From a virus, in IMG/VR virus record IMGVR_UViG_3300045988_142718: a stretch of 64,000 nt of DNA; one strand, 5' to 3'. The translations under genes and the position numbers were made by a program. Under the pieces are notes generated by a model, which worked only from the letters and a program-made list of their open reading frames with translations, was not told where the DNA came from and ran no database searches. Of the stretch, positions 49,424-63,053 are shown one piece after another; position 1 is the first letter of the stretch; each line of letters starts with the position of its first letter.

Positions 49424-49440
49424 CGTATAAACATCTTATC

Positions 49441-49644: not shown

Positions 49645-49681
49645 AGATAAGGAATTATATTGCAGTATGAAAAATAATATT

Positions 49682-49691: not shown

Positions 49692-49714
49692 TAAAGAAAA
49701 AATAATAAAAAAAT

Positions 49715-50080
49715 ATGGTAACTAAACTACAAAGGATCATCGATAACATCGAATTAGTAAGACTCAGAAGAGAAGAATATTACAAAGCTTCCCCAAAAGG
49801 GAAGGCCCTTATTCAAAAAGAGATTAATATCCTTCTCCGAAGAATCCGAGATATGGTACAAGATATTTCAAATGTTGGGAAAGGAGACATTTCGAAAGTT
49901 ACCTATGTTATCAAAAATTCTGAAGGAACTAAAACTTTCGAAGAAGAATTCATAGGATTAGATGAAGAGGAGATTAAGAAACTTTTCGAAGTTAGAAAAT
50001 TCTTTACTGCTTCATCAAACTATGAAATCCTAAGAATCGAAAAATATCATACCCAGATCAGGGAAATATCTACTAATTAA
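49715..50080 (+). CDS. Hypothetical protein
   Basis: A promoter box lies 23 nt upstream. Confidence 0.55.
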   Translation: MVTKLQRIIDNIELVRLRREEYYKASPKGKALIQKEINILLRRIRDMVQDISNVGKGDISKVTYVIKNSEGTKTFEEEFIGLDEEEIKKLFEVRKFFTASSNYEILRIEKYHTQIREISTN

Positions 50081-50115
50081 AAACATATCATTAACACATT
50101 AAAATTCATAAGAAC

Positions 50116-50652: not shown

Positions 50653-50678
50653 GTTGGTTGCCATTTTTATATAAACCC

Positions 50679-50722
50679 AAAAGGGGAAGTATCCATATCT
50701 CAATTTGGGTCTTCCCCTTTTT
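50679..50722 (+). terminator. Intrinsic terminator
   Basis: 11-bp stem aaaaggggaag / cttcccctttt. Confidence 0.85.
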
Positions 50723-50743
50723 CATTTTAAAAAACTATCAATC

Positions 50744-51595
50744 ATGGAAGAAAATAAAATCATCATAAAACCCAAGATGAGGATCACCCTATTGGATTCA
50801 GAACTTCGATGTATATCGGATAGATTAGTAGATCAGGCTACTGAATTCATGCAAGGAGCTAAAGTAAAGCATACTGATCCAATTAAGCTGGAAGTAGTAT
50901 TAACTTCTAAAAATGATGTTGAATCACTTAAAACTTATTTAGATCAACTAGTAGGTAATCTACCTATAAAGGTTATTGGAACCAGAGGAAGGCCTGCTTC
51001 TACTTCTTCGAAAGAATTAGAATCTCCAAGAGAGGATATTTATCTCAAGGTTGAAGAGATGAGTAAAACTGAAAGCCAGGATGAGATAATTAAATACCTT
51101 CGTTCATTAGGCTTTGTATTCCTATTAACCGAGGATTTCTTACATTATTTCCCTGACTTTAAATTCAGAGCCAAGGATATTGGGGAAGCTAACAGAAATG
51201 GCCAATACATTAATTCCTATCAATGGCTTGTAAGAAGGATTAAGATGGCCAAAGATCCCAAATCTGATAAATATGATCCTCAGATTATCTTTGGATTCTA
51301 TCTCAATGAAAGAAATCCCAGATTTGTAGGTTATCTCTATAAAGACTTCAAATCTCGAATGAAGGCTTATATTCCGGATAAAACTAAGATTACCTTTGCT
51401 TCATTCGAAATGGCGAAGATGCCCCCATATATGGAAGAAACGGAAAGATTAAAATGGTCTACAGAAATGAGGCAATTAATGCTAGACCCAGAAAAGAAAC
51501 CTTCAAAATTCTTTATCAGATGGGCTCCAGATATTCTTTTACCCGAATCACATAAAGAAAAACTAAAACATCTCGATATCACATTCAAAGGGTAG
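50744..51595 (+). CDS. Hypothetical protein
   Basis: The start is moved to the first ATG after the terminator. The track start at 50705 lies inside the hairpin. Confidence 0.6.
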   Translation: MEENKIIIKPKMRITLLDSELRCISDRLVDQATEFMQGAKVKHTDPIKLEVVLTSKNDVESLKTYLDQLVGNLPIKVIGTRGRPASTSSKELESPREDIYLKVEEMSKTESQDEIIKYLRSLGFVFLLTEDFLHYFPDFKFRAKDIGEANRNGQYINSYQWLVRRIKMAKDPKSDKYDPQIIFGFYLNERNPRFVGYLYKDFKSRMKAYIPDKTKITFASFEMAKMPPYMEETERLKWSTEMRQLMLDPEKKPSKFFIRWAPDILLPESHKEKLKHLDITFKG

Positions 51596-51613
51596 CTTCT
51601 GCTACCCTTTTTC
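51588..51613 (+). terminator. Intrinsic terminator
   Basis: Stem aaagggtagc / gctacccttt followed by T's. It spans the stop codon. Confidence 0.85.
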
Positions 51614-51661
51614 GTACCATATAAAGTATAAAAAAGGTATTTATAATAAGAATAAATTTTA

Positions 51662-51671
51662 TATATTTGCA
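51662..51671 (+). promoter_or_regulatory. -7 box TATATTTGCA
   Basis: 36 nt upstream of the ATG at 51708. Confidence 0.65.
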
Positions 51672-51707
51672 TTGGTATAATTTATTATTAATTTTAAACA
51701 TATAAAA

Positions 51708-51872
51708 ATGGAACAGAACAAAGAAAAGACATTACCAAAAGGACATTATGATTCTTTTGCTGCTCAATTATCCAAGGATATCCAAAGAGCTCAAGAGGAA
51801 ATCTCTAAAAAAGAAGGCTTTGAAAAGGTACATCAATCTGTAAACCCAATTTCACAAAATTACGTAGGATGA
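51708..51872 (+). CDS. Small hypothetical protein (54 aa, absent from the ORF track)
   Basis: MEQNKEKTLPKGHYDSF.... A promoter box lies 36 nt upstream and the stop overlaps the next ATG (ATGA). Confidence 0.45.
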   Translation: MEQNKEKTLPKGHYDSFAAQLSKDIQRAQEEISKKEGFEKVHQSVNPISQNYVG

Positions 51873-52330
51873 AATTAAACATTAGTACAGAGGTAGCGGA
51901 GTTAATCTCTCATATTGCAGATGTACAGATTAAGGCTCTCTTAGATATTCAACAAGGTAATTACCAAATTGATGAAGAGGATCAGGAATTATTAATGCAA
52001 TATCAAGCTACAATTCAAACTGTACAAAGGGAAGCAAAGGTTGTAATCTCTCATTTCCAGGATATGAAAAGGGAACCATTATTAATAGGTATCACTTCAA
52101 ATCAATTCCTATCTATAATGCGGCATATCCTATTTCGAATAGAAGAAGAGTATCCAAATAAACAAGCAGTTATTCAATTATGGGATATCTTCTTCTACAT
52201 AGAAAGGGAAAGAACACCCGAAATCAAATTAATGGTCAAATCGAATAAAAAACAAAACAATGGGAAAAGCATTAGCATCAACAACAATCGAATTAGAAGG
52301 AGCAAAGACAATCCAGTTTCAACCAGATAA
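51869..52330 (+). CDS. Hypothetical protein
   Basis: 153-aa ORF coupled to the upstream small ORF. Confidence 0.55.
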   Translation: MKLNISTEVAELISHIADVQIKALLDIQQGNYQIDEEDQELLMQYQATIQTVQREAKVVISHFQDMKREPLLIGITSNQFLSIMRHILFRIEEEYPNKQAVIQLWDIFFYIERERTPEIKLMVKSNKKQNNGKSISINNNRIRRSKDNPVSTR

Positions 52331-52331
52331 C

Positions 52332-52586
52332 ATGGAAGGAGTAGATTCTTCTAATTTATACAAAATCTGTAAAGGTTATATCCATGATAAAGAAAATCAA
52401 AAGGAAATACCTTATGTAGCAGTAAACTTTAAAAAGAATCCTGGCCTTCTTTATATCTATGAGGGTATTCATCCAAAGGTTTATCAAGAATTCAGAGAAG
52501 CTCCCTCTAAAGGGCAATTCTTAAATCGAGAAATTATTCCTTCTGCGAAATCAACTTATAAAGTTCATGTACCTGGATTAAGATGA
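52332..52586 (+). CDS. Hypothetical protein
   Basis: The non-overlapping ATG at 52332 is preferred. The track start at 52260 overlaps the upstream gene by 71 nt. Confidence 0.45.
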   Translation: MEGVDSSNLYKICKGYIHDKENQKEIPYVAVNFKKNPGLLYIYEGIHPKVYQEFREAPSKGQFLNREIIPSAKSTYKVHVPGLR

Positions 52587-52939
52587 GTAAGAAAACATTC
52601 TTTATATCGTTATCAGTAGTTCTTGGGATTTTATTCCTGGGAACTACTCCCCCAAAGGTTAAAGAGCAACCCAAATGGGAAAAGCCAGAATCTGGGAAAT
52701 GGTGCTTGGGATATGATTATAAAAATCATCGATACAGATATGATACTTCACCAAAAACCAAATCCCAGCCAACTAAAACAGTAATCAAAAAAGCTCATCA
52801 TAGTTTCGAATTATATGAGAATGGGAACTTTACTAAGGAACAAGCAAAAGATCTTGAATATTACATTCAATCCCAGAAAAGTACCCATGATTACTACCCA
52901 GAAGATATCCAAGAATTAATAGAATATTATTTGGATTAA
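52583..52939 (+). CDS. Hypothetical secreted or membrane-anchored protein
   Basis: N-terminal hydrophobic segment FFISLSVVLGILFLG. Confidence 0.55.
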   Translation: MSKKTFFISLSVVLGILFLGTTPPKVKEQPKWEKPESGKWCLGYDYKNHRYRYDTSPKTKSQPTKTVIKKAHHSFELYENGNFTKEQAKDLEYYIQSQKSTHDYYPEDIQELIEYYLD

Positions 52940-52953
52940 ATAAATAATATATG

Positions 52954-52963
52954 TATATTTGCA
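52954..52963 (+). promoter_or_regulatory. -7 box TATATTTGCA
   Basis: 43 nt upstream of the ATG at 53007. Confidence 0.65.
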
Positions 52964-53006
52964 ATAAATAAAAAATCAATTATTAATTAATAAAACATTT
53001 ACAGCT

Positions 53007-53438
53007 ATGACAACGAAATCAACATCTCAGAAAGTAAAAGCAACAAAGGTTGAATCTAAAAAAGTAAAGGCTTTAAATCCTAAGGTAGAAGAAGCTAAAG
53101 CGAAAACTTCTAAAAAGGTAAAGGCAACCAAGATTGAATTGCCTTCAACCAAATTGGAGAAAAAGAAATCCAAGGTAGCTAAGGAAGTTACTCCAGTTAC
53201 CAATACTGCTCTCATGGAACAGGTGGTATCGAAAAGGGAGATCAAATACATCTATCCCGATGATTGCATTGATACCCTTGCCAGAAAACAATTCCGTCAA
53301 AAGGTAAGGAACAAAATACATAAAATGGAGAACCAACTTTTCAAAATGTCGGATAAAACATCTAAGGAATATCTGAAAATTTCCAAAGAACTCAAGGCAT
53401 ATTATTCTGCCAATGTCAAAGAAGGTGCTGCCATATAA
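53007..53438 (+). CDS. Hypothetical protein with Lys-rich N-terminal repeats, paralog of the ORF at 62038
   Basis: KVKATKVESKKVKA...KKVKATK in the N-terminal half, then IYPDDCIDTLARKQFRQKVRNKI. Confidence 0.6.
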   Translation: MTTKSTSQKVKATKVESKKVKALNPKVEEAKAKTSKKVKATKIELPSTKLEKKKSKVAKEVTPVTNTALMEQVVSKREIKYIYPDDCIDTLARKQFRQKVRNKIHKMENQLFKMSDKTSKEYLKISKELKAYYSANVKEGAAI

Positions 53439-53449
53439 TATAAACCAAA

Positions 53450-53478
53450 TTAGGAGGATACTTACTATATCCTCCTAA
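53450..53478 (+). terminator. Hairpin without a T-run
   Basis: 11-bp stem ttaggaggata / tatcctcctaa. Confidence 0.45.
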
Positions 53479-53509
53479 TATGTACAACGAAATTTAAAAG
53501 GTTTATATT

Positions 53510-53797
53510 ATGGCACTTATAATCGGATTACCAGAAAAAGAGATTCAAAAGGTAAACAAAGACCTTTATGAATTACACAAACGAGTTATTCTCAATTACC
53601 TTTTATCAAGGTCTCTCGAATTAAGGTCCAGAAAAAAATTCTTCATAGTATATGGACATTACATTACAGAGAAAAACATTCACGAGTATTTCTATACACC
53701 TATACATATATTCGTTCAACTTTTAATCCGAAACGAATTATGGAGATGCCGAAAATATCACAAAGATACTAACACTAAAAAACGTAAAAGAAAATGA
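53510..53797 (+). CDS. Hypothetical protein
   Basis: 95-aa ORF after a hairpin. Confidence 0.5.
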   Translation: MALIIGLPEKEIQKVNKDLYELHKRVILNYLLSRSLELRSRKKFFIVYGHYITEKNIHEYFYTPIHIFVQLLIRNELWRCRKYHKDTNTKKRKRK

Positions 53798-54027
53798 ATA
53801 CAGAAACATTTTTCGTAACAGGGAGTAATGCCTATAACATCTTAGAGGTATTATTGGATAATGAATTCCTTTGGGACAAAGCCCAGTATAAATGTTATTA
53901 TGGGTATTACATTAATGGTAAAACCAATAAAGTGATTGCCTTTGATAACAGAACTGGGCATTGTAATACCGAAGAATTCGAAACTGTAGAACAAGCTAAA
54001 GAATGGTTAGGGTATGAAGACAATTGA
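53794..54027 (+). CDS. Hypothetical protein
   Basis: ATGA-coupled start. Confidence 0.5.
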   Translation: MNTETFFVTGSNAYNILEVLLDNEFLWDKAQYKCYYGYYINGKTNKVIAFDNRTGHCNTEEFETVEQAKEWLGYEDN

Positions 54028-54343
54028 TCACATCAAAAAGTATGGATTGGATAAAAACAACAAAAGTTTATCCAAGTTAGAAAAGGATGAATTCTTTAAG
54101 GACTTAGAAAAAGAGCTCTTAGAAAGAATTCAAGAGAGGGAGAAAAATTATCCTGGAGATTTGCCCTACAAAATCTTTCAGAATTTGGTTAAACAGGTTA
54201 ATGATAAATTCTGGGCAATCTCAAATAAGAAAAAAGGAATTGCTTTTACCTTCGAATTATGGAATGCCTTTTTTGCAATCAAGGTAATTCCTATTCGAAA
54301 TAAATATTTCCCAGAAATGGAGAAATTTAAACATAAAAAGTAA
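54014..54343 (+). CDS. Hypothetical protein
   Basis: 109-aa ORF followed by a terminator. Confidence 0.5.
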   Translation: MKTIDHIKKYGLDKNNKSLSKLEKDEFFKDLEKELLERIQEREKNYPGDLPYKIFQNLVKQVNDKFWAISNKKKGIAFTFELWNAFFAIKVIPIRNKYFPEMEKFKHKK

Positions 54344-54350
54344 AATTACA

Positions 54351-54388
54351 GCAGAGCTCGAGACTAACCTTGAAGGCTCTGCTTTTTT
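54351..54388 (+). terminator. Intrinsic terminator
   Basis: Stem gcagagc / gctctgc followed by tttttt. Confidence 0.8.
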
Positions 54389-54408
54389 AATCCTTAAATA
54401 TCACAGAT

Positions 54409-54693
54409 ATGAAACTTTCAGGGCAACACATTAATGAGGCTTGGCTATACATTGTTACCAAGACAGTTCTTCTCACTAAAATAGGAGAAAATAAAGAAGT
54501 AAACATGGATGTTCAAATCACTGGTAACAGTTTAATAATTAAAATATTGGACTACAGAGAAATCATTGAACCCAACTACTTCGAAAATCTTAAGGAAGAA
54601 CTTCAAAGATTCAAATCAGAGTATGAAAACCTTCTAATCAGAGAAACTTCGATAGGAAACGAACATAGGTATCTCATAACATTAATCCCATAA
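54409..54693 (+). CDS. Hypothetical protein
   Basis: 94-aa ORF. Confidence 0.5.
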   Translation: MKLSGQHINEAWLYIVTKTVLLTKIGENKEVNMDVQITGNSLIIKILDYREIIEPNYFENLKEELQRFKSEYENLLIRETSIGNEHRYLITLIP

Positions 54694-54697
54694 AATT

Positions 54698-55048
54698 ATG
54701 CAAATAAATGATATATTTACAGACCTTCATGGTAACCAATATGAAATAATGGATTTCCATGTTTTGGGCCCAGATTATCCACTATTCCAGGATAACAGGG
54801 ATGCCATACTCACATCATCTACTCAAGATGAACATATTAACCTTATCATAAGAGGAAATGATCAACTTATCATATATAATGAACATCATAAAGTATATTG
54901 GATGTATGACATCAAGTTTATTCAACATTTTGATAAATTTGACATAAGAAAGGGTTTTTACAATGAAAAGAATACCAAGGGTAACAGGTCTAACCGCAAT
55001 GATGGTAGAATATCATCAAACAGTAAGTCCAGAAATAAAAGACGTTAA
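54698..55048 (+). CDS. Hypothetical protein
   Basis: 116-aa ORF. Its low-complexity tail overlaps the next ORF. Confidence 0.45.
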   Translation: MQINDIFTDLHGNQYEIMDFHVLGPDYPLFQDNRDAILTSSTQDEHINLIIRGNDQLIIYNEHHKVYWMYDIKFIQHFDKFDIRKGFYNEKNTKGNRSNRNDGRISSNSKSRNKRR

Positions 55049-55814
55049 GAAGAAGAACATCATTACCCATGTAGTAAATCAATGGGCACTTAATAATGGA
55101 TTACTTTGTGGAGTAATCCATAATCCTTCATCATTAGCTTCATATCTGGGATGCGATATTGAGGATATCAATATGGTCCTAAGAGAAAGGTTATTAAATA
55201 ATCGAATCTGGGATAAACAAAATCAAGAAGAGATATTAAATGCCATTACTGGTATGTCCATCAGTATGGCAATGGAAGATCGAATGGAAGCTGCTTCTCA
55301 AGTAGAAATATTAAAAAGATCCCAGGGAGATCACTATGTACCTTTCATATCTGCAGAACTTAGACAAGCTTTAGATTTGAAGATGAAAGCTGGAGCACAA
55401 TTATCTTCAATGATTAAGAATATCATGGGTGGTACAACTAATGTCTTCAATATTAACAATCAAAGTTCTGCTGGAGTAATGGAGCAAAACAACTTTGTTA
55501 CTAAAGAAGATGCTCTAAAAATCTTAGAGGAAGAACATACTAAACAGAAAGAATCTTTTAATGAAAAGGATGCTAAATTCTTAGAAGAACATTATGAGTT
55601 AGATGCTTTGCCAGATGTATCTGCTAAGACTCAACAAGGATTGGATGTAACTAAGGAAGGTCTGGATGCAGTAAAGACAGAGCTTATTCAGATTACAGAT
55701 AATTATAAGATACATAGGGAAGAACCTGAAGATGTGGATTTTCATGAGATCCGAAGAGAATTAGAAATGAACATAGATTCAGAAGACGATCCAGAAATGG
55801 ACAACTATAATTAA
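54963..55814 (+). CDS. Hypothetical protein with acidic C-terminus
   Basis: 283-aa ORF. The start is uncertain because of the overlap. Confidence 0.55.
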   Translation: MKRIPRVTGLTAMMVEYHQTVSPEIKDVKKKNIITHVVNQWALNNGLLCGVIHNPSSLASYLGCDIEDINMVLRERLLNNRIWDKQNQEEILNAITGMSISMAMEDRMEAASQVEILKRSQGDHYVPFISAELRQALDLKMKAGAQLSSMIKNIMGGTTNVFNINNQSSAGVMEQNNFVTKEDALKILEEEHTKQKESFNEKDAKFLEEHYELDALPDVSAKTQQGLDVTKEGLDAVKTELIQITDNYKIHREEPEDVDFHEIRRELEMNIDSEDDPEMDNYN

Positions 55815-55959
55815 ATGTTTTACATACATCATTAACAAAAACAAATTTCGTTGTTTTAGCATTTTAGTAATTATGTTATGCGTTCAAGAACAGTAATGTT
55901 AACCTAAATCTTGATGCTCGTTTTATACGTTAATAATCTTATTATTCGACACTGGAACT

Positions 55960-55985
55960 GGGTAGTTGGGAAACTACCCTTTTTC
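55960..55985 (+). terminator. Intrinsic terminator
   Basis: Stem gggtagtt / aactaccc followed by ttttt. Confidence 0.8.
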
Positions 55986-56045
55986 GTAGATATCCAGCTA
56001 CTCTTACCATCCTATTTAAATTTTGCGTATTAAATACAAATAAAG

Positions 56046-56055
56046 TATATTTGCA
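56046..56055 (+). promoter_or_regulatory. -7 box TATATTTGCA
   Basis: 32 nt upstream of the ATG at 56088. Confidence 0.65.
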
Positions 56056-56087
56056 AATAAAATATTAATCATTAAAAAACAAAAACG

Positions 56088-56546
56088 ATGACTTCATCAC
56101 AGATTACATTACTCAAGCAACTGATAGATTCTACAGATTATAGAGTCTATGTAAAACTCAATGGAAAAAGAGAATTAGCTACTCAACTAAGAATTGGATC
56201 AAAGAAATCCCAAGCAATCCTTCAATGTTACAGCTTTTCATGCAATCCATATCAATTAACTACATCAATGGTTGATATCTACAGAGTGAGTAGACCTTTA
56301 GAATTCTTTTCATCTAATGGGAACAACACATTAAACTTTCAAGGATTAACCTGGCTTTGTATTAAACAAAGAGAAGTAAGGCCCGGAGATATCTTACTAG
56401 ATGCAAAGAACTTAAAAGATACCTATTTAGCTACTACAATGGTATCAGAAGTAGATAACACAATCTTTGCTTTTTGCCCTATTCAAAAAGAAATCATCTC
56501 CTTGATATACATTGAAGATGTAGTGGCTATTAGGGCTGTTTTTTAA
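56088..56546 (+). CDS. Hypothetical protein
   Basis: A promoter box lies 32 nt upstream. Confidence 0.55.
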   Translation: MTSSQITLLKQLIDSTDYRVYVKLNGKRELATQLRIGSKKSQAILQCYSFSCNPYQLTTSMVDIYRVSRPLEFFSSNGNNTLNFQGLTWLCIKQREVRPGDILLDAKNLKDTYLATTMVSEVDNTIFAFCPIQKEIISLIYIEDVVAIRAVF

Positions 56547-56566
56547 GCCCAAATTAATAATGTAAA

Positions 56567-56602
56567 TATATTTGTATTTAAAATATAATGTATATATTTG
56601 CA
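56567..56602 (+). promoter_or_regulatory. Tandem -7 boxes (TATATTTG at 56567-56574, TATATTTGCA at 56593-56602)
   Basis: Upstream of the ATG at 56652. The layout matches the tandem boxes at 61957-61992. Confidence 0.6.
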
Positions 56603-56651
56603 TTGTCGAATAAAAATAAAATTTATTAATCATTTAAATGCAATTACAAAT

Positions 56652-56957
56652 ATGGTATCTGAGTATCAATTCAACAGTCAAGAAGTCTGCATATTTCCTA
56701 AAGAAAATGGGCTTTACATTATCTCAGTAATTCGCTATTACTACACAAGGAAAAATCATTCCGAACCTAAACTTACAAGCGAATCAAATTGGAGATGGGA
56801 AACCAATTGCAAGGAACTTGTGCTCAAACTTCAATCTAATAACATTAGAACGAGGGCTTTTACTCAACAGCTAATTGTATTGGCTAAACAATTTGGAATA
56901 TTAACTCATAAAAATTACACAAATCATGCTAAGGATTATATCAAACAGGGATTCTAA
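56652..56957 (+). CDS. Hypothetical protein
   Basis: The start is moved to the first ATG. The track start at 56598 is the TTG of the promoter box. Confidence 0.5.
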   Translation: MVSEYQFNSQEVCIFPKENGLYIISVIRYYYTRKNHSEPKLTSESNWRWETNCKELVLKLQSNNIRTRAFTQQLIVLAKQFGILTHKNYTNHAKDYIKQGF

Positions 56958-57186
56958 TTCAGTTACAGTACAAGCTTTGGATAAAAATGCTCAAGAGATC
57001 CTATTAAGAGCATTCCTGGATGAATCAAGAACAGATTGTACCGGACACTCATGGCATTTCAAGGATGCCTATGTATACTACGAGAATCAAATAGTAACCA
57101 TAGTTTCTTCAAAAGATTCTAGGGATAAGTATCAGAAGAAGCTATTCGTTACTTCATTAGTTAACACAATAATTGAATTCAGATGA
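56926..57186 (+). CDS. Hypothetical protein
   Basis: 86-aa ORF. Confidence 0.45.
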   Translation: MLRIISNRDSNSVTVQALDKNAQEILLRAFLDESRTDCTGHSWHFKDAYVYYENQIVTIVSSKDSRDKYQKKLFVTSLVNTIIEFR

Positions 57187-57683
57187 AAGTAAAACAATTC
57201 ATAGGATTAATGATACTAGCTCTCTCCCCAATGGGAGCTGGTATCCTTTATGCTCTTTATCAAACAGAGTTTAAGCCAAATGCAAATCATGCTCACTACA
57301 CTTGGCCTAATGGAGAAGTAAAAACAGAAAGAGAAGTAACTCTAACGGATGAAGAAAAGAGGCTCATAGTTCAAGATGGCATTTTAAAAGCATATGAATT
57401 ACATACTGAAAGTATCATTACAAGATTAAAGGATGAGATTCAGATAATTAAGGATTCAGGAGAAAATTCTAGCGATATTAAATCTGGAAGACTAGAATAT
57501 TTGCAACATAATCTAATCTATGCCACTAGAATTAAAAAACTTATCGAAAAGATGAGAGATACTGGATTAGATTATACAAAAGAGGTAGAAATCCAGGTAG
57601 AACTTCAAGAGAGAAACCAATATAATTATGAACAAGGTAAATATAAACAATCGAACGTATGCCGAAAAGAAATAAAATGGTGA
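57183..57683 (+). CDS. Hypothetical membrane-anchored protein
   Basis: N-terminal TM helix FIGLMILALSPMGAGILYALY. Confidence 0.55.
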   Translation: MKVKQFIGLMILALSPMGAGILYALYQTEFKPNANHAHYTWPNGEVKTEREVTLTDEEKRLIVQDGILKAYELHTESIITRLKDEIQIIKDSGENSSDIKSGRLEYLQHNLIYATRIKKLIEKMRDTGLDYTKEVEIQVELQERNQYNYEQGKYKQSNVCRKEIKW

Positions 57684-57988
57684 AATTCCTCCAAGAGGTA
57701 AAACCAATCATAGAAGACATCAAAATCATGGGTTATAAGAACTCAACAAAGAACCTAATAGGTAAAATGGAGATTTCTATTAAGGTTGAAAACAAGAATG
57801 ATCTTTTAGATCTCCAGGTTGAACATCTTCCCAATGTGGATAAAGAACATTTCGAATACAAGGGCAACAAGGGCAATGATTTAGTCCTTATCACAATGTA
57901 CTTCAATAATTATGATGAAAGGAATACTTGGTCACAACATTGGAAAGAATACCCTTCAATCGAATCATTCCTAACAGGGCAAGCCTAA
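57659..57988 (+). CDS. Hypothetical protein
   Basis: 109-aa ORF. A terminator hairpin spans its stop codon. Confidence 0.5.
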   Translation: MPKRNKMVKFLQEVKPIIEDIKIMGYKNSTKNLIGKMEISIKVENKNDLLDLQVEHLPNVDKEHFEYKGNKGNDLVLITMYFNNYDERNTWSQHWKEYPSIESFLTGQA

Positions 57989-58003
57989 CAAGCTTGCCTT
58001 TTT
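57978..58003 (+). terminator. Intrinsic terminator
   Basis: Stem ggcaagc / gcttgcc followed by ttttt. Confidence 0.8.
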
Positions 58004-58040
58004 AATTTAATAAAATAGTATGCAGTATTAAAAATAATAT

Positions 58041-58076
58041 TTATATTTGCATTGTAATATTAATCATATAAAAAAT
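58041..58076 (+). repeat. 36-bp promoter-leader cassette, copy 1
   Basis: ttatatttgcattgtaatattaatcatataaaaaat is identical to 61051-61086. Confidence 0.95.
58042..58051 (+). promoter_or_regulatory. -7 box TATATTTGCA
   Basis: 33 nt upstream of the ATG at 58085. Confidence 0.65.
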
Positions 58077-58084
58077 GTAATAAC

Positions 58085-58508: not shown

Positions 58509-59141
58509 ATGACAACAAAAGAAATCAAAAACTGGGAATGGATCAAATCAGTAGAGGTCCAATATATGGGATTCTTAACCCAATATTTAGGAACTGCAAC
58601 CGATAGTAAGGGATTTGTTGAACTAATGAAACAACTTAGATTAGATGAAGCAATAGCTTACCTAAAAGATGACCTTGGAAAAGGTAGTTCAGAACCAAGC
58701 TATTACAAATTCCAATTCTATACCAAAACAATGCAGTTCACAAAAGAAGAAGAGTTCTGGGAAGCTATTAGTAAGGGTTCAATACCCGAAATCGAACAAC
58801 TAAAAGGAAAGGAATTACTGGATACTTTAGAAGCTCTAAGAACCATTCTCCATCCAACAGTAAGAGCATTACTAGAATCCTATATAATAGATATGGTAAT
58901 GCCCATACCAGGAATTATTTCCTTCTTATTGATAGTGAAACCCAAACAAGAAATTGAGCCAGGCACAATAATGTTTCGTATCAGATATCTGATGGAAGGA
59001 TGTATAGACCATGAGCCAACACCACTACTCAAGGAATATCATATCCACCTAAACGCTCAACCAAAAGAAGGCCAAGAAAATCCCTTTATAACACAAATCA
59101 TATTAATATCAAAGAAATTAACTACCATCACAATCAAATAA
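58509..59141 (+). CDS. Hypothetical protein
   Basis: 210-aa ORF, the last gene before the 1.9 kb ORF-free region. Confidence 0.55.
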   Translation: MTTKEIKNWEWIKSVEVQYMGFLTQYLGTATDSKGFVELMKQLRLDEAIAYLKDDLGKGSSEPSYYKFQFYTKTMQFTKEEEFWEAISKGSIPEIEQLKGKELLDTLEALRTILHPTVRALLESYIIDMVMPIPGIISFLLIVKPKQEIEPGTIMFRIRYLMEGCIDHEPTPLLKEYHIHLNAQPKEGQENPFITQIILISKKLTTITIK

Positions 59142-59149
59142 TAATCATT

Positions 59150-59760
59150 ATCCTTAACTATGAAAAGGTTTACATTTCCCACCAACAAACACAATTTAAA
59201 TCAAAGCTCATCATACTTCAAGGATAATAAAAGAATCCCTTACACTCATCCAAAAAACAATGATCATAGAATAAGGATTATATAATCACATACATTAGGA
59301 TCCCAAAAAACACAAACAAAAAAGAAATCGAATAAATAAATCCCAGTTCTATGATATAAATAATCCAATAATCCCCATATCACAAGGATTATATACCCAT
59401 AACCCAAAACAACACCTAAAAAAGAAAATCATAAGTCAATGATAATATATAAACCCATTATCACATAAAGCCAATGATCACCTACAACACAAACAAAATA
59501 AAAATCATCATATGAGATATCCTTGATATTATCCTAGATCCCAAAAAACAAACATAATCCTAAAGATAACGCATAAAGGGATATCATATCAATGATAATA
59601 TAATCCCTATCCTTATCACCAAAAACCAAACACATAAAAATAAAATCCCCATTATAACAATGATAAAAGGAATCCTATATATAACCTACATACAAAAAAT
59701 AAAAAATAATAAAGGTATATATAATAGGATTAAATAAAATATGAAATACATATCAAATAC
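59150..59760. repeat. A/C-rich, G-poor array of degenerate units (arm A)
   Basis: CCCAAAAAACA-like cores recur about every 50-100 bp, together with CAATGAT and AAGGATTATATA motifs. There is no ORF. Confidence 0.7.
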
Positions 59761-60010
59761 ACTATCAAATAGAAGCTATATAACATGGGTATAACACGGG
59801 GGCGAAATTTACTCGATAGCACGAACTATACATACGTATCTCTAAACCATAGAGTTTTCAAGTTTTAAGGCCCTAAAATTTGCATACGTGTTGTGTACAT
59901 TTTTTCGAAAAATTAGGTCTGGGATTTGAGGATTTAGGGCCTTTTTTACCCTAAAACGTCAACTTAGCTCACTTTTAGCACTTTTGACTTTTTTAACCCA
60001 TTTTTTACAA

Positions 60011-60032
60011 ACATATCCAAAACATATCCAAA
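60011..60032 (+). repeat. Tandem 11-mer ACATATCCAAA x2
   Basis: Direct read in the core of the non-coding region. Confidence 0.9.
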
Positions 60033-60239
60033 ACTGTACTTTTTTTCGAGCACAAGTTAAAAATAGCCGGCTTTAGAAAAAAATATCAAACTCTCAACTT
60101 CAAGATTTTAGGATAAATTTTAGGGTTATCTATGGATAAATTAAAATCACAATCGAAGCTAAAAACAATGTCTTTTATTTATTAATCTAGAACATAATAG
60201 AGGGTAATCTTTCTAGTTACTTAGAATTAAAGTAAAATT

Positions 60240-61020
60240 TACTAGAGGTATGTTAAATTAAATATTTAATCGAAAGTCTGGGATTATGATAAAATTCGAT
60301 GATTATTATAAAATGATTGCCTTGAATTCGATGATTTTTAATAAATTTGGTTCAATGATTCGATGATTTTATTAAATCCTTGATCTGGGATAATGATTTT
60401 ATTATAACCCTTATTATTATATTATATATAATATATAGGATTATGTTCTGTGTTCTGAGATTATTATAATCCTTGATTCGATGATATGTTATCATATTAT
60501 ATAAGCTTTGTGTTTTCTTTTGTAGGATCTGTTTTCATAGCTCTTATTATATTATTATATAATATAAGGGATATGATTATAATCCTTGATCTGTGATCTG
60601 ATGATGTTTTATATTATATTATATTATTATATATATATGATTATTATTATATATATGATTATTATTAATTTTTTGATAGAAGCTTGTTTTTGGGCTATAT
60701 TGGAGCTATGTTGATTTTTTTAGGGCCTTATTATATATAATATATATTATAATAGGATAATTATAATAGGATAAGGATTTTATTCGATGATCCTATGTAC
60801 ATTGTGTTCAAGGATATTTTTATTTTTCGATGTGTTTTTTGGGCTAACCAAGAAGGTATAGGATTTGGCTCAAGGCTTTAAGTATAATATAATAAGGCCT
60901 TAGATCATTGTGTCCATTTAATTCGATGTAAGGATTCAAGGCCTTATTATATACCATGGATGGCCCTAAGTTTAAATAATCTTTCGAAGTGAGCCTTGAA
61001 TCAGAGCCCAAATTTTATAT
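60240..61020. repeat. T/G-rich array with the complementary unit family (arm C)
   Basis: gtgttttttggg and ttgtttttggg are complements of the arm A core. TTCGATGAT occurs five times and AATCCTTGAT three times. Confidence 0.7.
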
Positions 61021-61050
61021 GCGTATTATATTATATATAATATATAATGA

Positions 61051-61086
61051 TTATATTTGCATTGTAATATTAATCATATAAAAAAT
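61051..61086 (+). repeat. 36-bp promoter-leader cassette, copy 2
   Basis: Identical to 58041-58076. Confidence 0.95.
61052..61061 (+). promoter_or_regulatory. -7 box TATATTTGCA
   Basis: 34 nt upstream of the ATG at 61096. Confidence 0.65.
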
Positions 61087-61095
61087 TATTGCCCT

Positions 61096-61503
61096 ATGAA
61101 CACAACAGATCAGTTATTTAATAACACAATCCTATTCCAGGATACAGAGAACATCGAAGGAACAGTAAAAAATGTTTATCTGAGACAATTCTTTTATGAA
61201 TCCTTAGGAATGGATGATCCTAGAGGTTATAATCTTTGGTCAAGGATTTTTAATCGCTTTTCTAAAGTTGATTCTAGTATGGTTCGAATTTTACCTAATG
61301 ATCCTGAGAAATTAGTTTGGTTCTTAGAATTATCGATTACAGATAACAGAGACCAAATTATATCGGAGAATTATGATAAGGCATTATCCTTCTATAAGGA
61401 AACATTAAATGAAATCCAAGATTACCTTGACCTATCTAATGCCTTTCAATATATAGGATTGGGTAATACGAAATTATATATCACATTCATAGCTGAAATT
61501 TAA
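61096..61503 (+). CDS. Hypothetical protein
   Basis: The start is moved to the first ATG. The track start at 61057 is the TTG of the promoter box. Confidence 0.55.
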   Translation: MNTTDQLFNNTILFQDTENIEGTVKNVYLRQFFYESLGMDDPRGYNLWSRIFNRFSKVDSSMVRILPNDPEKLVWFLELSITDNRDQIISENYDKALSFYKETLNEIQDYLDLSNAFQYIGLGNTKLYITFIAEI

Positions 61504-61596
61504 TGCTAGCCTGTTCGATACATCGAATACTAATTATCTTATGAAAATAAATCTTAATCATACTCAATAGGAATATTACTCTAATCAAATCTGTAT

Positions 61597-61633
61597 AAGG
61601 TAGCTCGCTTGGGATAAGTAGGCTACCTTTTTT
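61597..61633 (+). terminator. Intrinsic terminator
   Basis: Stem aaggtagc / gctacctt followed by tttt. Confidence 0.8.
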
Positions 61634-61660
61634 ATTTGTGTTCTTTTATCTTTACTTTGT

Positions 61661-61837
61661 AAAACCTGCTAGCTAAGGCCTTAATTCTTTGAGCCCATCC
61701 TACTTTCAGGATATCTTTATACGATATATTATATAAAACCTGCTAACCAAGCGTAAGGCCCTGTAAGCCCAAAAGGCCATAATAATCTCCATTGATGGCC
61801 CTAAATAAAGGCCTTCAAAAACCAGCCAACTAAGGCC
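61661..61837 (+). repeat. Three iteron-like direct repeats AAAACCWGCYARC...TAAGGCC
   Basis: Copies at 61661-61680, 61735-61760 and 61817-61837, with about 75-80 bp spacing. Confidence 0.75.
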
Positions 61838-61956
61838 TTGATTTTTTAGGCAGGTAGGTAGGTAATGATGAAGGCAGGGTGATGGTGAGCAATGATATTT
61901 TAATAAATAAAATCTATTTGTTTAATAGAAAAATTCAATAAAAATTTTTCTCAAAA

Positions 61957-61992
61957 TATTTTTGTATTTAAAAAATTCATTGTATATTTGCA
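61957..61992 (+). promoter_or_regulatory. Tandem -7 boxes (TATTTTTG at 61957-61964, TATATTTGCA at 61983-61992)
   Basis: Upstream of the ATG at 62038. Confidence 0.6.
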
Positions 61993-62037
61993 ATACAGAA
62001 AAACAAATAAAACGTATCACTTTAAAAATTAAAAGTC

Positions 62038-62553
62038 ATGAATGCAAATGTAAATGAAAATGTGTTATTAAATGGAGTAAACAACAATGTAGAAGAATCT
62101 GCAAAAGTTGAAAAAAAGAAAACACAAAAAACAACTGCAAAAAAGAGCACAAAAAAAGAAAGTGCAAAAGTAGAAAAAAAAGAAATAGAAAAAATTTCTT
62201 TTTCCAAATTACTCGAAACATTGGACACAACGGGATTGCATACCAATTCAGGTTTAAAGAAAGAGAATCTATATAACTCTTCCATTTATGCGGATTGTTT
62301 AACAGATAAAGATAAAAAGTCTGTTAGACGCAAAATTCGTAATCTTTTGGACAATTTTATAGGAAGCATTATTCGTTCAGAAAAGAATAAAACAATTTGC
62401 GAAAATCATTGCAAACAATTCAAATTATTTTATGAGCAAGTTTATAGAATAAATGATTTTTCCGTAGAAAGTTTAGTTTCTAATAATACAGATGAATTAA
62501 AAAAAGAGAATTTAAAGAAAATGCTTGAAATTGTAAAAAAGAATTTGAAATGA
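62038..62553 (+). CDS. Hypothetical protein with Lys-rich N-terminus, paralog of the ORF at 53007
   Basis: ESAKVEKKKTQKTTAKKSTKKESAKVEKKE in the N-terminal half, then IYADCLTDKDKKSVRRKIRNLL. Confidence 0.6.
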   Translation: MNANVNENVLLNGVNNNVEESAKVEKKKTQKTTAKKSTKKESAKVEKKEIEKISFSKLLETLDTTGLHTNSGLKKENLYNSSIYADCLTDKDKKSVRRKIRNLLDNFIGSIIRSEKNKTICENHCKQFKLFYEQVYRINDFSVESLVSNNTDELKKENLKKMLEIVKKNLK

Positions 62554-62568
62554 AAAAAGAAAAAATAA

Positions 62569-62593
62569 AAGAGTGCATAATATTTGCACTCTT
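62569..62593 (+). terminator. Hairpin
   Basis: 9-bp stem aagagtgca / tgcactctt with a 7-nt loop and a weak T tail. Confidence 0.5.
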
Positions 62594-62603
62594 ATTCCTT
62601 ATA

Positions 62604-62611
62604 TATATTTG
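62604..62611 (+). promoter_or_regulatory. -7 box TATATTTG with no ORF downstream
   Basis: It lies between two terminators. Only about 65 nt separate it from the end of the next terminator. Confidence 0.4.
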
Positions 62612-62642
62612 GTGTTGCTGTAATTCATAAATAATAATAAAG

Positions 62643-62682
62643 AGAGTATATTTTTGTCCCCTATAAAATATACTCTTTTTTT
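62643..62682 (+). terminator. Intrinsic terminator
   Basis: 12-bp stem agagtatatttt / aaaatatactct followed by tttttt. Confidence 0.85.
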
Positions 62683-62689
62683 GCTTTAA

Positions 62690-63015
62690 TGGGCAACCCT
62701 TCCCCTCTCTTATTCATATAAGATTTTTCGATAAAGCCTATAAGGGATTTCCTTCATTTCCCTTCTTCCTTTAGGATTGCCACAACTTTTTTCTGAAAAC
62801 ACAATAAGGGATTTCATTTAAATCTTTGAATTATATTACCCTTACATATCTTTTGTATTCATATTGGATTTTTATGATATGATTATTCGATGAGATGTTA
62901 TCCTTTATTTCATTTGTTTATCCTTTATTGGGATTCAAGGTTTTTTATCCCTTATGCTTTATCACATTAGGATTTTTATTTTTCATTTTATGTTTGTTTG
63001 TTTGGGGACTCTTAC
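62690..63015. repeat. T-rich non-coding block of the same unit family as arm C
   Basis: tttatgtttgtttgtttgggg is the complement of cccaaa(c)aaacaaacataaa, similar to 59539-59558. GGATT and TTCGATGAG motifs are also present. Confidence 0.55.
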
Positions 63016-63053
63016 AATAAAGGCCCAAGATAAAAATACCCCAGGCCTTTATT
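63016..63053 (-). terminator. Hairpin downstream of the minus-strand fibre-like gene
   Basis: 10-bp stem aataaaggcc / ggcctttatt with an 18-nt loop and no clear U-run. Confidence 0.4.

What the first reader, a model, noticed from the sequence alone, without database searches (positions are those of the whole stretch)
59142..61056. 1.9 kb ORF-free region built as two compositionally inverted repeat arms around a distinct core
No ORF of 60 aa or more exists in any frame across this region, which is exceptional in such a tightly packed genome.

- Arm A (about 59150-59760) is A/C-rich and nearly G-free. It is made of degenerate units with cores such as tcccaaaaaacacaaac, acccaaaacaacac, tcccaaaaaacaaacat and caccaaaaaccaaacac, plus CAATGAT (five times) and AAGGATTATATA.
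- Arm C (about 60240-61020) is T/G-rich. It carries the complements of the arm A cores (gtgttttttggg, ttgtttttggg, tataatccttg) plus TTCGATGAT (five exact copies) and AATCCTTGAT.
- A third block of the arm C type lies at 62690-63015.

Candidate roles are:
- A replication origin.
- A packaging site or the physical genome ends.
- Two convergent Rho-loading (C>G, unstructured RNA) termination zones.
- Protein-binding arrays.

None of these is established by the sequence alone.
Basis: partly seen in the sequence, partly recalled or inferred. Interest (0 to 1): 0.75.

Follow-up and report, generated by a model that had tools for sequence, protein, structure and literature searches.

The report
Gene-free seam of a gut phage
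A real, conserved 1.9-kb gene-free stretch in an abundant human-gut Bacteroides phage probably stops the phage's long one-way transcription and shields a small, nearly invariant DNA control core (perhaps the replication origin), but no function is proven.

Summary
Window 59142-61056 is the only long ORF-free stretch (1915 nt; next largest 520 nt). Arm A has the eight lowest GC-skew windows of the 64 kb. Arm C has the lowest C and G+C content and the least stable duplex.

The arms mirror each other in composition and share short words, but they are not alignable inverted repeats. The "third block" is T-rich but C>G, so it is not arm-C type.

The phage is an ~80-kb contractile-tailed Bacteroidota phage, probably "Flandersviridae". 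Over 50 close relatives show arms that change by whole-unit indels, a ~500-bp core 98.5-99.8% conserved, and a ~40-nt hypervariable patch after a unique CGGGGG. Distant lineages keep the same plan, always with arm A but not always arm C.

Best reading (about 0.4): arm A, a 760-nt C>G, G-starved, structure-free tract after the 59-kb rightward gene block, is a Rho-type termination and insulation zone. It guards a cis-acting DNA core that may be the origin.

Not supported: genome ends or a pac site, structured RNA, recoded genes, DNA inversion.

The parts
58968..59727 (+). Arm A: an uninterrupted C>G, G-starved (5.5-7% G), A-rich tract. It begins in the last 170 nt of the 210-aa gene and fills the space after it. 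Candidate Rho-loading and termination zone for rightward transcription.
   Evidence: Longest C>G bubble on the + strand (760 nt; next 315 nt). The 8 lowest GC-skew windows. + strand RNA folding energy of -7.8 to -14.8 kcal/mol per 150 nt, against -26.8 +/- 6.6 for the window. No terminator-like hairpin. Hypervariable by unit indels.
59739..59771 (+). 11-bp tandem repeat ATATCAAATAC, 2.9 copies, at the left edge of the conserved block.
   Evidence: Tandem Repeats Finder. Conserved in close relatives.
59797..59802 (+). CGGGGG, the only copy in the window. The G5 is invariant at the arm A/core junction in the distant lineages that carry it; six arm-A-bearing loci have no G5 within 900 nt.
   Evidence: GGGGGT invariant in 15 other lineages. 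(CGGGGG occurs once on either strand).
59803..59843 (.). Hypervariable, mosaic patch of about 41 nt in an otherwise invariant core. The window's allele carries ACTATAC at 59825-59831.
   Evidence: over 25 distinct alleles built from a few left-half and right-half variants. The equivalent spacer of 38-47 nt is also variable between distant lineages.
59844..60330 (.). Ultraconserved core, starting at AAACCATAGAG. It contains short palindromes (TTTTTCGAAAAA, ATACGT, AGCCGGCT, TCTAGA), paired AAGGCCCTAAA/TTTAGGGCCTT, and the AGGTCTGGGATTT word shared with distant lineages.
   Evidence: 98.5-99.8% majority identity, against 94-95% in the gene to the left. No ORF. RNA fold z-scores of +0.30 and -0.39. 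No Rfam hit. Inverted pairs.
60009..60034 (+). 11-bp tandem repeat AAACATATCCA, 2.4 copies. Same orientation and similar sequence to the 59739 repeat.
60322..60349 (+). Weak host-type promoter-like site (cTTG-N17-TAAATTTG) facing arm C, at the right edge of the core.
   Evidence: Conserved in close relatives. Function not shown.
60331..60860 (+). Arm C, variable part: T/G-rich, C-starved, G+C 18-25%. It holds TTCGATGAT, TAATCCTTGAT and repeated AT palindromes (TATTATATTATATATAATATATA). Length-polymorphic.
   Evidence: Public contigs often break here, two of them running into Nextera adapter.
60532..60681 (.). Least stable 150-bp duplex of the 64-kb window. The second least stable is 59634-59783, on the other side of the core.
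   Evidence: Nearest-neighbour stability profile: -0.979 against a mean of -1.220, sd 0.050.
60887..60952 (.). Conserved palindrome with a 15-bp stem (ATATAATAAGGCCTT ... AAGGCCTTATTATAT) carrying two AAGGCCTT sites.
   Evidence: DNA fold z-score -4.6. Weak two-strand hairpin hit in Rfam. 97-99% conserved.
61014..61095 (+). Early promoter cassette (-7 box TATATTTG at 61052-61059) and leader of the 135-aa gene. Nearly identical to the cassette at about 58042.
62690..63015 (+). Not the same composition class as arm C.

Best explanation
The region is the seam of an ~80-kb phage genome with a circular map, in which nearly every gene points rightward.

**Arm A.** It lies directly after the last gene of the 59-kb rightward block. 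It is a 760-nt stretch whose transcript would be C>G, almost G-free and unstructured. It most likely loads the host termination factor Rho. Early and read-through transcription would then stop before reaching the core and the genes beyond it.

**The core.** It starts at a unique CGGGGG, followed by a hypervariable ~40-nt spacer. It is then almost invariant for ~500 bp and is full of short palindromes and phased 11-bp repeats. It most likely acts as DNA bound by proteins. The replication origin is the leading candidate and a master regulatory site is the second.

**Arm C.** It is an easily melted, AT-rich, C-starved spacer. It also presents a C>G face to any leftward transcript, and it leads to the next early promoter.

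**Shown:** the anatomy, its statistical extremity, and its conservation pattern within the lineage and across the family.

**Inferred:** Rho dependence, the DNA-level function of the core, and origin activity.
For: **Arm A as a termination zone**
- Arm A is the single large C>G bubble on the sense strand (760 nt against 315 nt for the next) and a top bin for (YC-N9-13)x6 motifs.
- It is the extreme of GC skew and G depletion.
- Its + strand RNA is the least structured in the window, at the 0-4th percentile, while its complement is average.
- These are the descriptors that predict Rho-dependent terminators (PMC6144790).
- No intrinsic terminator follows the 210-aa gene. The small genes to the right each have a hairpin, and two of these are followed by a T-run.
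- Host-type promoters on the + strand from 46203 to 58042 feed transcription into arm A.
- In lineages with TerL only 65-75% identical, a G-starved A-rich tract (skew -0.5 to -0.79) again follows the last + gene, although its sequence is unrelated. The mirror arm is present only in some lineages.

**The core as a DNA element**
- It is 98.5-99.8% conserved with no ORF.
- It shows no RNA structure signal.
- It is flanked by the two least stable duplex segments.
- It contains 11-bp phased repeats.
- Lineage-specific short motifs sit in opposite orientation in the two arms. L095 has CTAGGTACACAA and TTGTGTACCTAG. L119 has a perfect 18-bp inverted repeat.
- The single-copy GGGGGT is invariant in the distant lineages that carry it.
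Against: - There are no transcript or termination data.
- Rho rules come from E. coli and Salmonella, not Bacteroidota.
- In one lineage (L095) a hairpin already follows the last gene, before the tract.
- In some lineages part of the G-poor tract encodes a small protein of about 70 aa. The bias is therefore not restricted to untranslated RNA.
- Arm C's leftward C>G bubble is not exceptional, and no leftward promoter aimed at it was found.
- For the origin idea: DnaA boxes are not enriched. There is no genome-wide GC3-skew switch. A second AT-rich non-coding spot inside the replication module (25725-26024) is a rival site.
- The hypervariable patch is not explained.
Confidence: 0.4

Rival explanations
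1. The whole region is a bidirectional (or rightward) replication origin. The core binds the initiator, and the AT-rich arms are the unwinding zones and iteron arrays. The mirrored composition (T/G-rich strand pointing away from the core on both sides) is then a by-product. It would come from oriented binding sites, or from prolonged single-strandedness (C-to-T deamination) of the lagging-strand templates or R-loop non-template strands.
For: - The polarity of the skew switch is that of an origin, with the cumulative GC-skew minimum in the core.
- The two least stable duplexes flank the core.
- There are phased 11-bp repeats.
- Lineage-specific motifs lie inverted between the arms.
- The arms evolve fast, as expected for mutable flanks.
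- The G-poor bias extends into coding sequence.
- The seam position would make almost all genes co-directional with a rightward fork.
Against: - The mirror arm is weak or absent in several lineages, while arm A is always present.
- The rare-variant spectrum does not show the expected C>T excess in arm C.
- There is no genome-wide GC3 skew switch.
- DnaA boxes are at chance level.
- No initiator gene is adjacent, and the flanking proteins have no detectable domains.
Confidence: 0.25
2. The arms are transcribed outward from the core. The region would then encode non-coding RNAs or long leaders that are C-starved and so resistant to Rho. An example is a rightward leader from the weak promoter at 60342 towards the 135-aa gene, with an antisense RNA running leftward over the early genes.
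For: - A promoter-like site at 60322-60349 faces arm C.
- Outward transcripts would have 4.5-9% C.
- A short promoter-terminator unit nearby (62604 to about 62680) shows that the phage may make small RNAs.
Against: - No canonical Bacteroidota promoter faces left.
- There is no Rfam match and no fold signal.
- The arms are hypervariable in sequence and length, unlike RNA genes.
- There is no consensus structure at the conserved junction.
Confidence: 0.1
3. The region has little function. It would be a hyperplastic junction where promoter cassettes and AT-rich repeats duplicate, decay and recombine, with the core hitch-hiking on neighbouring conserved DNA.
For: - The arms change by unit indels.
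- AT-rich modules in arm C resemble the upstream half of the promoter cassette at 61020-61056, which is itself duplicated at 58042.
- The DNA to the right (60862-61611) is as conserved as the core.
Against: - The extreme and directional composition is maintained across lineages whose sequences no longer align.
- The invariant single-copy GGGGGT and the downstream ACTATAC block argue for selection.
- The core is more conserved than the adjacent protein-coding gene.
Confidence: 0.1
4. The region holds the packaging start or the physical genome ends (cos, pac or a short terminal repeat equal to the core).
For: - A G/C-rich single-copy island (for example CCTCGCCGGGGG in L119-type lineages) sits in AT-rich DNA, as many cos sites do.
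- Public contigs tend to start at 59778-59786 and stop at 60362-60370.
Against: - Those contig ends coincide with the first polymorphic positions on each side of the invariant core, or with AT-rich runs ending in adapter. This is expected from mixed strains and coverage drop-out.
- Many contigs read straight through.
- The ~79-81-kb contigs break at an acidic GAA/GAT repeat at about 48.5 kb, not here.
- Full-length contigs of other lineages start at different positions.
- TerL resembles T4-type headful terminases.
- The terminase genes are about 5.7 kb away.
- Published coverage of a family member is even (PMC8008677).
Confidence: 0.05
5. The core is an invertible DNA switch of the kind common in Bacteroides. 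It would be flanked by short inverted repeats and carry a promoter that can face either arm.
For: - A 15-nt inverted repeat (14/15) at 59726-59740 and 60366-60380 brackets the core.
- L119 has a perfect 18-bp inverted repeat around the G5 segment.
- One public contig (L060) begins with 32 nt that are the reverse complement of 60250-60281, joined at 59783.
Against: - The core has the same orientation relative to both flanks in all loci that carry both.
- The left inverted repeat is not conserved in close relatives.
- The L060-type junction and its reciprocal are absent from IMG/VR.
- No recombinase was seen near the region.
Confidence: 0.03

Closest known systems
Rho-dependent terminators / rut 'C>G bubbles' (for example lambda tR1, E. 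coli operon-end terminators)
   Same: An untranslated tract that is C-rich, G-poor, YC-rich and unstructured, just downstream of the last stop codon. It has no sequence consensus and is conserved only as a composition (PMC6144790).
   Different: It is ten times longer than a minimal rut site (760 nt against about 80). It is built of degenerate repeat units that vary between strains. It is paired in many lineages with a mirror tract on the other strand. The host is a Bacteroidota member, where rut rules are untested. Rho dependence is not shown.
Phage replication origins in large AT-rich, repeat-laden intergenic regions (for example lambda ori iterons plus an AT-rich region; lactococcal c2 and sk1 origins) - from my own knowledge
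   Same: A non-coding stretch of easily melted DNA next to phased or inverted short repeats, at a boundary between transcription units, with a local skew switch.
   Different: There is no adjacent initiator gene, no clear iteron family, and no DnaA boxes. The region lies 25 kb or more from the replication genes. The arms are far more skewed than any replication-driven bias.
Injection-stop-signal region of phage T5 (a ~1.7-kb ORF-free stretch of direct repeats, inverted repeats and palindromes closing the pre-early region) - from my own knowledge
   Same: A kilobase-scale ORF-free block of repeats and palindromes at the end of a cluster of small early genes.
   Different: T5's region sits at a fixed distance from a physical genome end, inside a long terminal repeat. 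Here no defined end or terminal repeat was found. The virion has a contractile tail and a T4-like TerL.
Bacteroides invertible promoters (invertons)
   Same: A segment of a few hundred bp, bracketed by short inverted repeats, between oppositely organised flanks.
   Different: Only one orientation is seen in more than 50 assemblies, and no recombinase was identified.
'Flandersviridae' candidate family of gut Bacteroides phages (Benler et al. 2021, PMC8008677)
   Same: The phage matches on several points:
- contractile tail
- DnaB
- a large DNA polymerase
- a long block of unknown small ORFs after the replication module
- Bacteroidota-type promoters
- very frequent assembly from human gut metagenomes
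- the same ENA contig series
   Different: The genomes here are ~80 kb, against a family median of 85 kb. The paper does not describe this non-coding region. Membership was not tested by phylogeny.

Membership tests
Rho-dependent terminator (rut region) | Uninterrupted C>G bubble (78-nt sliding window) on the non-template strand | tested here: met
   760-nt bubble at 58968-59727 with mean %C-%G of 14.3. It is the longest on the + strand by 2.4-fold.
Rho-dependent terminator (rut region) | Transcript poor in secondary structure and in G | tested here: met
   Folding energy of -7.8 to -14.8 kcal/mol per 150 nt, against -26.8 +/- 6.6 for the window. G is 5.5-7%.
Rho-dependent terminator (rut region) | Regularly spaced YC dimers, (YC-N9-13)n | tested here: inconclusive
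   The 59001-59500 bin ties for the top count on the + strand (5 sites, against a mean of 0.3), but the 59501-60000 bin has none.
Rho-dependent terminator (rut region) | Untranslated position downstream of a gene, with no intrinsic terminator doing the job | tested here: met
   No ORF. No hairpin/T-run site between 59141 and 62569. In lineage L095 a hairpin precedes the tract.
Rho-dependent terminator (rut region) | Termination depends on Rho (3' ends lost on Rho inhibition) | not testable with these tools
   Needs Term-seq or RNA-seq with bicyclomycin or Rho depletion.
Replication origin | Easily unwound AT-rich element next to the binding region | tested here: met
   The least stable and second least stable 150-bp duplexes of the window flank the core.
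Replication origin | Arrays of initiator-binding repeats (iterons or DnaA boxes) | tested here: inconclusive
   Two 11-bp tandem repeats and lineage-specific inverted motifs are present. DnaA boxes are at chance level (22 against 24.6 expected; one 1-mismatch box at 60131-60139).
Replication origin | Genome-wide strand-composition switch centred on the site | tested here: not met
   GC3 skew of + strand genes shows no organised switch across 64 kb. The switch is local to the arms.
Replication origin | Initiation of DNA synthesis at the site | not testable with these tools
   Needs marker-frequency, 2D-gel or plasmid-replication assays.
cos / pac site or terminal repeat | Reproducible physical ends at the site | tested here: not met
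   Contig ends fall at the first polymorphic bases or in AT-rich runs and adapters. Most contigs read through. Full-length contigs break elsewhere.
cos / pac site or terminal repeat | Next to or inside the small terminase gene, with a terminase type that cuts at a fixed site | tested here: not met
   The putative TerS and TerL genes start 5.7 and 6.4 kb to the right. TerL's relatives are T4-like and cyanomyovirus terminases.
Structured non-coding RNA | Match to a known family, or a fold more stable than shuffles, or covariation | tested here: not met
   Rfam gives nothing at gathering score and only a hairpin-like chance hit at E 0.25. Fold z-scores are +0.30 and -0.39. RNAalifold finds 0 consensus pairs across 15 lineages.
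Invertible DNA switch (inverton) | Both orientations present in populations | tested here: not met
   One orientation in all loci. There is a single odd contig end (L060). Junction patterns are absent from IMG/VR. Raw reads were not examined.
'Flandersviridae' (identity of the phage, not of the region) | An ~85-kb genome with contractile tail genes, a DnaB/DnaG/PolA module, about 20 kb of unknown ORFs, and a Bacteroides/Parabacteroides host | tested here: inconclusive
   Gene content and order fit. Bacteroidota promoters are present. Contigs are ~79-81.5 kb. No TerL or PolA tree was built, and no CRISPR-spacer host match was made.

The most novel reading that the evidence does not exclude
The unit made of the unique CGGGGG, a hypervariable ~40-nt spacer and a conserved CTATA-type block may be a strain-specific recognition module. 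The unit is found in most of the distant lineages examined, and the spacer is mosaic even among near-identical genomes. It could be an origin, packaging or immunity 'barcode' read by a co-varying phage protein or RNA. The two oppositely skewed arms would then be a dedicated device that keeps this site free of transcription from both sides. This would be a new kind of cis-element under diversifying selection in one of the commonest human gut phage groups.
Probability: 0.12. Interest if true: 0.75.

Novelty: new variant of a known kind. Interest (0 to 1): 0.45.

Why it matters
These phages are among the most frequently assembled in human gut metagenomes. Their replication, packaging and gene control are unknown.

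This seam is the only large non-coding region, and its plan is conserved across the family. It is therefore the obvious place to look for the origin and for the boundary between early and late expression.

If arm A is a kilobase-scale Rho trap, it would show how a phage with all genes in one direction on a circular map prevents endless read-through. It would also give a natural test case for Rho signals in Bacteroidota.

In practice, the hypervariable arms and AT-rich palindromes explain why assemblies of these phages break here. The invariant core is a good marker for detecting the lineage.

Tried and rejected
1. **Hidden genes in another genetic code.** TAG, TGA or TAA recoding gives no conserved ORF. 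Small ORFs in the core and patch are lost in relatives.
2. **tRNA, tmRNA or known RNA families.** None found.
3. **Structured RNA.** Fold z-scores are near zero and there is no consensus structure across lineages.
4. **Physical ends at about 48.5 kb and a T5-like first-step-transfer layout.** The shared contig ends there lie in a GAA/GAT acidic repeat, so they are an assembly artefact.
5. **A 585-bp terminal repeat equal to the core.** The tight clusters of contig ends coincide with the first polymorphic bases, with AT-rich runs, or with adapter read-through.
6. **DNA inversion.** Orientation is constant, and the junction patterns are not found elsewhere.
7. **DnaA boxes.** At chance level.
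8. **General enrichment of restriction-type palindromes.** None. Only AAGGCCTT/GGCC is enriched.
9. **Genome-wide replication skew.** No organised GC3-skew switch.
10. **Deamination signature in rare variants.** Inconclusive: G>A is raised in arm A, but C>T is not raised in arm C.
11. **Alignment of the core to distant lineages.** nhmmer and blastn find nothing significant. Only short anchors are shared.
12. **Covariation of patch alleles with flanking proteins.** Too few independent loci (16 left, 9 right), so it was not pursued.
13. **RGGAT(T/A) as a specific arm motif.** It is common throughout the genome.
14. **Domain or structure hints for the flanking 210-, 135-, 171- and 195-aa proteins.** None found. 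PDB sequence searches of the 135- and 171-aa proteins also found nothing.
Full report
**What the window is**

The 64-kb window carries genes almost entirely on the + strand. In order they are:
- tail genes (sheath, tape measure, baseplate)
- a replication module (DnaB-like helicase, another helicase, a 1167-aa DNA polymerase, an SbcC-like nuclease)
- about 12 kb of small unknown ORFs

G+C is 34%. Canonical Bacteroidota promoters (TTTG, 17-20 nt, TAnnTTTG, usually TATATTTGCA) sit upstream of the small genes between 46.2 and 62.6 kb, all on the + strand. This marks that stretch as an early region read by the host polymerase.

The nearest GenBank phages share only 36-38% identity in the sheath protein. 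The flanking 210-aa protein, however, has 327 variants of at least 84% identity in public metagenomes. Many of these lie on ~79-81-kb contigs from human gut samples. Gene content, order, size and host signals fit the candidate family "Flandersviridae" (PMC8008677). I did not test membership by phylogeny.

To the right of the window, relatives carry this order:
- a few leftward genes
- a cytosine methylase
- a 230-aa protein
- TerL
- the structural genes

The genome therefore maps as a circle of rightward genes, and the region under study is its seam.

**Checking the observation**

Nothing of 60 aa or more is open in any frame across 59142-61056, and stop-codon recoding does not rescue a gene. 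The 1915-nt gap is 3.7 times the next largest. The next two gaps are its neighbours on the right.

- Arm A contains the eight lowest GC-skew windows of the 64 kb and the lowest G content.
- Arm C has the lowest C content, the lowest G+C and the least stable duplex.
- The second least stable duplex lies at the inner end of arm A.

The quoted motif counts are correct.

Three corrections are needed.
1. The arms share more short words in inverted orientation than shuffled controls do, but they cannot be aligned as inverted repeats.
2. Arm A's bias starts about 170 nt inside the last gene. The conserved core extends to about 60330-60365.
3. The "third block" is T-rich but C>G, so it is a different composition class.

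**Close relatives**

More than 50 loci from IMG/VR, ENA and Logan carry the region. In 19 distinct full-length copies the pattern is as follows:
- The gene to the left is 94-95% conserved.
- The arms drop to 45-89% and differ by whole-unit insertions and deletions. The distance from the left flank to the core anchor is 645-927 nt. From the anchor to the right flank it is 1029-1309 nt.
- The core at 59862-60311 is 98.5-99.8% conserved.
- The stretch from 60862 into the next gene is 97-99.9% conserved.

Inside the core there is one exception. Just after a CGGGGG that is unique in the window (59797-59802) lies a patch of about 41 nt (59803-59843). It occurs in more than 25 alleles assembled from a few left-half and right-half variants.

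**Distant relatives**

Using TerL of a 65%-identical lineage, I fetched 80 loci from other lineages with 10 kb of upstream flank. Their sequences no longer align with the window's core, but the plan recurs 5-9.5 kb upstream of TerL. In order, it runs:
- the last rightward ORF
- a G-starved, A-rich tract (200-nt GC skew of -0.5 to -0.79)
- an invariant GGGGGT
- a spacer of 38-47 nt that differs between lineages
- an invariant ACTATAC block
- arrays of short GGCC-type, AGGCAAT-type or AAGGTACCTT-type motifs
- in many lineages, a T/G-rich tract (skew +0.36 to +0.50)
- a TATATTTGCA promoter
- a ~130-aa gene

In two distant loci checked, CGGGGGT occurs once in about 21 kb.

The A/C-rich tract was present in every locus examined. 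Two features are less general:
- The mirror tract is weak or absent in some lineages (L066, L067, L072).
- Six loci that carry the tract have no GGGGG within 900 nt of it.

Some lineages have lineage-specific words in opposite orientation in the two arms (CTAGGTACACAA and TTGTGTACCTAG in L095). Others have a perfect 18-bp inverted repeat around the G5 segment (L119).

**What it is not**

- **Not RNA that folds.** Rfam finds nothing. Fold energies of either strand of the core equal those of shuffles. Fifteen lineages give no consensus pair at the conserved junction.
- **Not tRNA**.
- **Not the genome ends.**
  - The ~79-81-kb contigs that share an end do so in a GAA/GAT acidic repeat at about 48.5 kb.
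  - Full-length contigs of other lineages begin at different places.
  - The suggestive clusters of contig ends at 59778-59786 and 60362-60370 fall on the first polymorphic bases either side of the invariant core. Other ends lie in AT palindromes, and two run into Nextera adapter. This is what mixed strains and coverage drop-out produce.
  - TerL's relatives are T4-like terminases, and the terminase genes are about 5.7 kb away.
- **Not an active invertible switch, on present evidence.** Orientation is constant. One odd contig end (L060) has no counterpart in IMG/VR.

**Most likely mechanism**

*Arm A.* On the strand that is transcribed for nearly all genes, arm A is the one large C>G bubble: 760 nt at 58968-59727, against 315 nt for the next. 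Its RNA would be the least structured in the window, while the complementary RNA is ordinary.

C>G skew, low G, low structure and spaced YC dimers are the descriptors that predict Rho-dependent terminators (PMC6144790). No hairpin/T-run terminator follows the 210-aa gene. The 135-aa and 171-aa genes each have one, and a hairpin also closes the leftward block.

A function that resides in composition rather than sequence also explains two things. The tract can turn over by indels between strains, and be unalignable between lineages, while keeping its extreme bias.

I therefore read arm A as a long Rho-type termination zone. It would stop early and read-through transcription at the end of the rightward gene circle.

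*The core.* It is conserved at the DNA level, has no ORF and no RNA-fold signal, and is rich in short palindromes and 11-bp phased repeats. It is bracketed by the two most easily melted segments. These are the marks of a protein-bound cis element. An origin is the leading candidate and the polarity of the local skew switch fits one. But DnaA boxes are at chance, there is no genome-wide skew switch, and a second AT-rich non-coding spot lies inside the replication module.

*Arm C.* Its leftward C>G bubble is no larger than the usual antisense background. Its role as a second Rho trap is plausible but not compelling. It may chiefly be an unwinding or spacer element and a promoter-upstream region.

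*Unexplained.* The hypervariable patch has no explanation. Its position between two family-invariant anchors suggests a specificity determinant.

**Comparison with known systems**

The region works most like an operon-end Rho terminator joined to an origin-like or regulatory intergenic region. It differs from textbook cases in the kilobase scale, the repeat-unit construction and strain variability of the rut-like tract, the mirror arm, and the invariant-variable-invariant junction.

It resembles the ORF-free repeat region that closes the pre-early genes of T5 (from my own knowledge), but no nearby physical end exists here. It is best filed as a new variant of known kinds, with function unproven.

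**Verdict**

- The ends or packaging idea is not supported.
- The origin and protein-binding ideas remain open.
- Interest is moderate (0.45). The phage group is very common and this is its only large non-coding region, but every functional statement still rests on inference.

Noticed in passing
window 1-64000: GCGC occurs once, against about 52 expected from base composition. CCGG occurs 34 times against 52, and CTAG 53 times against 197. The near absence of GCGC suggests strong avoidance of a GCGC-specific restriction system. Relatives encode a C5-cytosine methylase just right of the window.
   Followed up: no
window 48440-48590: A GAA/GAT triplet repeat encodes a poly-acidic stretch inside ORF 48289-48795. 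Independent ~79-kb public contigs (L022, L024) break here, which mimics a shared genome end.
   Followed up: yes
window 62583-62690 (+): A canonical host-type promoter (TTTGCACTC...TATATTTG, -7 box at 62604) is followed about 35 nt later by a strong hairpin with a 16-bp stem (62639-62680) and a T7 run. This could be a small RNA of about 70 nt or an attenuated leader.
   Followed up: partly
window 25725-26024: A second non-coding spot (300 nt) inside the replication module. It is among the least stable duplexes and the highest GC-skew windows. It has a G6 run (25861) and AGGATATCAAATATCAAGGATTAAGGATATAAGGATATCC, which contains an exact TAATCCTTGAT on the - strand, as in arm C. It is a rival candidate for the origin.
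   Followed up: partly
window 60894-61839, and 59867-63050 for GGCC: The palindrome AAGGCCTT occurs 6 times in the window (0.6 expected), 5 of them here. 14 of 51 GGCC sites lie in 59.7-63.1 kb. Related TAAGGCC and AAGGTACCTT words fill the equivalent regions of distant lineages (L062, L066). They may be protein-binding sites.
   Followed up: partly
L060:1-32 (ENA contig OGNV01005029.1): The contig starts with 32 nt that are the exact reverse complement of window 60250-60281, joined to 59784 onward through a shared TAACAT. This is either a chimeric artefact or a rare inversion or foldback. No second example was found.
   Followed up: yes
window 58005-58084 and 61020-61095: A nearly identical ~45-nt early promoter cassette (TATATTTGCATTGTAATATTAATCATATAAAAAAT) is present twice. 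Short public contigs (L023, L027, L030) stop just before the second copy. Another lineage's GenBank record (MT121964) ends in a repeated promoter of the same type.
   Followed up: partly
window, both strands: TAATCCTTGAT (up to 1 mismatch) occurs 17 times against 4.75 expected. Of the 14 copies left of the core, 11 are on the - strand. All 3 copies in arm C are on the + strand.
   Followed up: no
L113, L119, L133, L136 (for example L136:73-290): In some lineages the G-poor A/C-rich tract contains a conserved small ORF of about 70 aa with two hydrophobic stretches (MNIIYHIIRIILS...). The composition bias is therefore not confined to non-coding DNA.
   Followed up: no
window 29804-33307 and 35574-37847; L028:19230 onward: Several large replication and packaging proteins look interrupted by inteins or homing-endonuclease inserts. 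The DNA polymerase has terminase- and helicase-like hits in its middle. The 757-aa protein has mixed ATPase hits. TerL is 501 aa in some relatives and 831-844 aa with Intein_splicing and NUMOD4 hits in others.
   Followed up: no
L034 and L037, 3' ends: Two public metagenome contigs end in Nextera adapter sequence (CTGTCTCTTATACACATCT...) right after the AT-rich run CCTTATTATTATAT of arm C. This is untrimmed adapter in deposited assemblies.
   Followed up: no
window 62038-62553 (+): The 171-aa protein next to the region has a lysine-rich N-terminal third (KKKTQKTTAKKSTKKESAKVEKKE). It gives only a faint, non-significant Pfam hit to UpxZ (E 0.3), a Bacteroides anti-terminator antagonist family.
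   Followed up: partly
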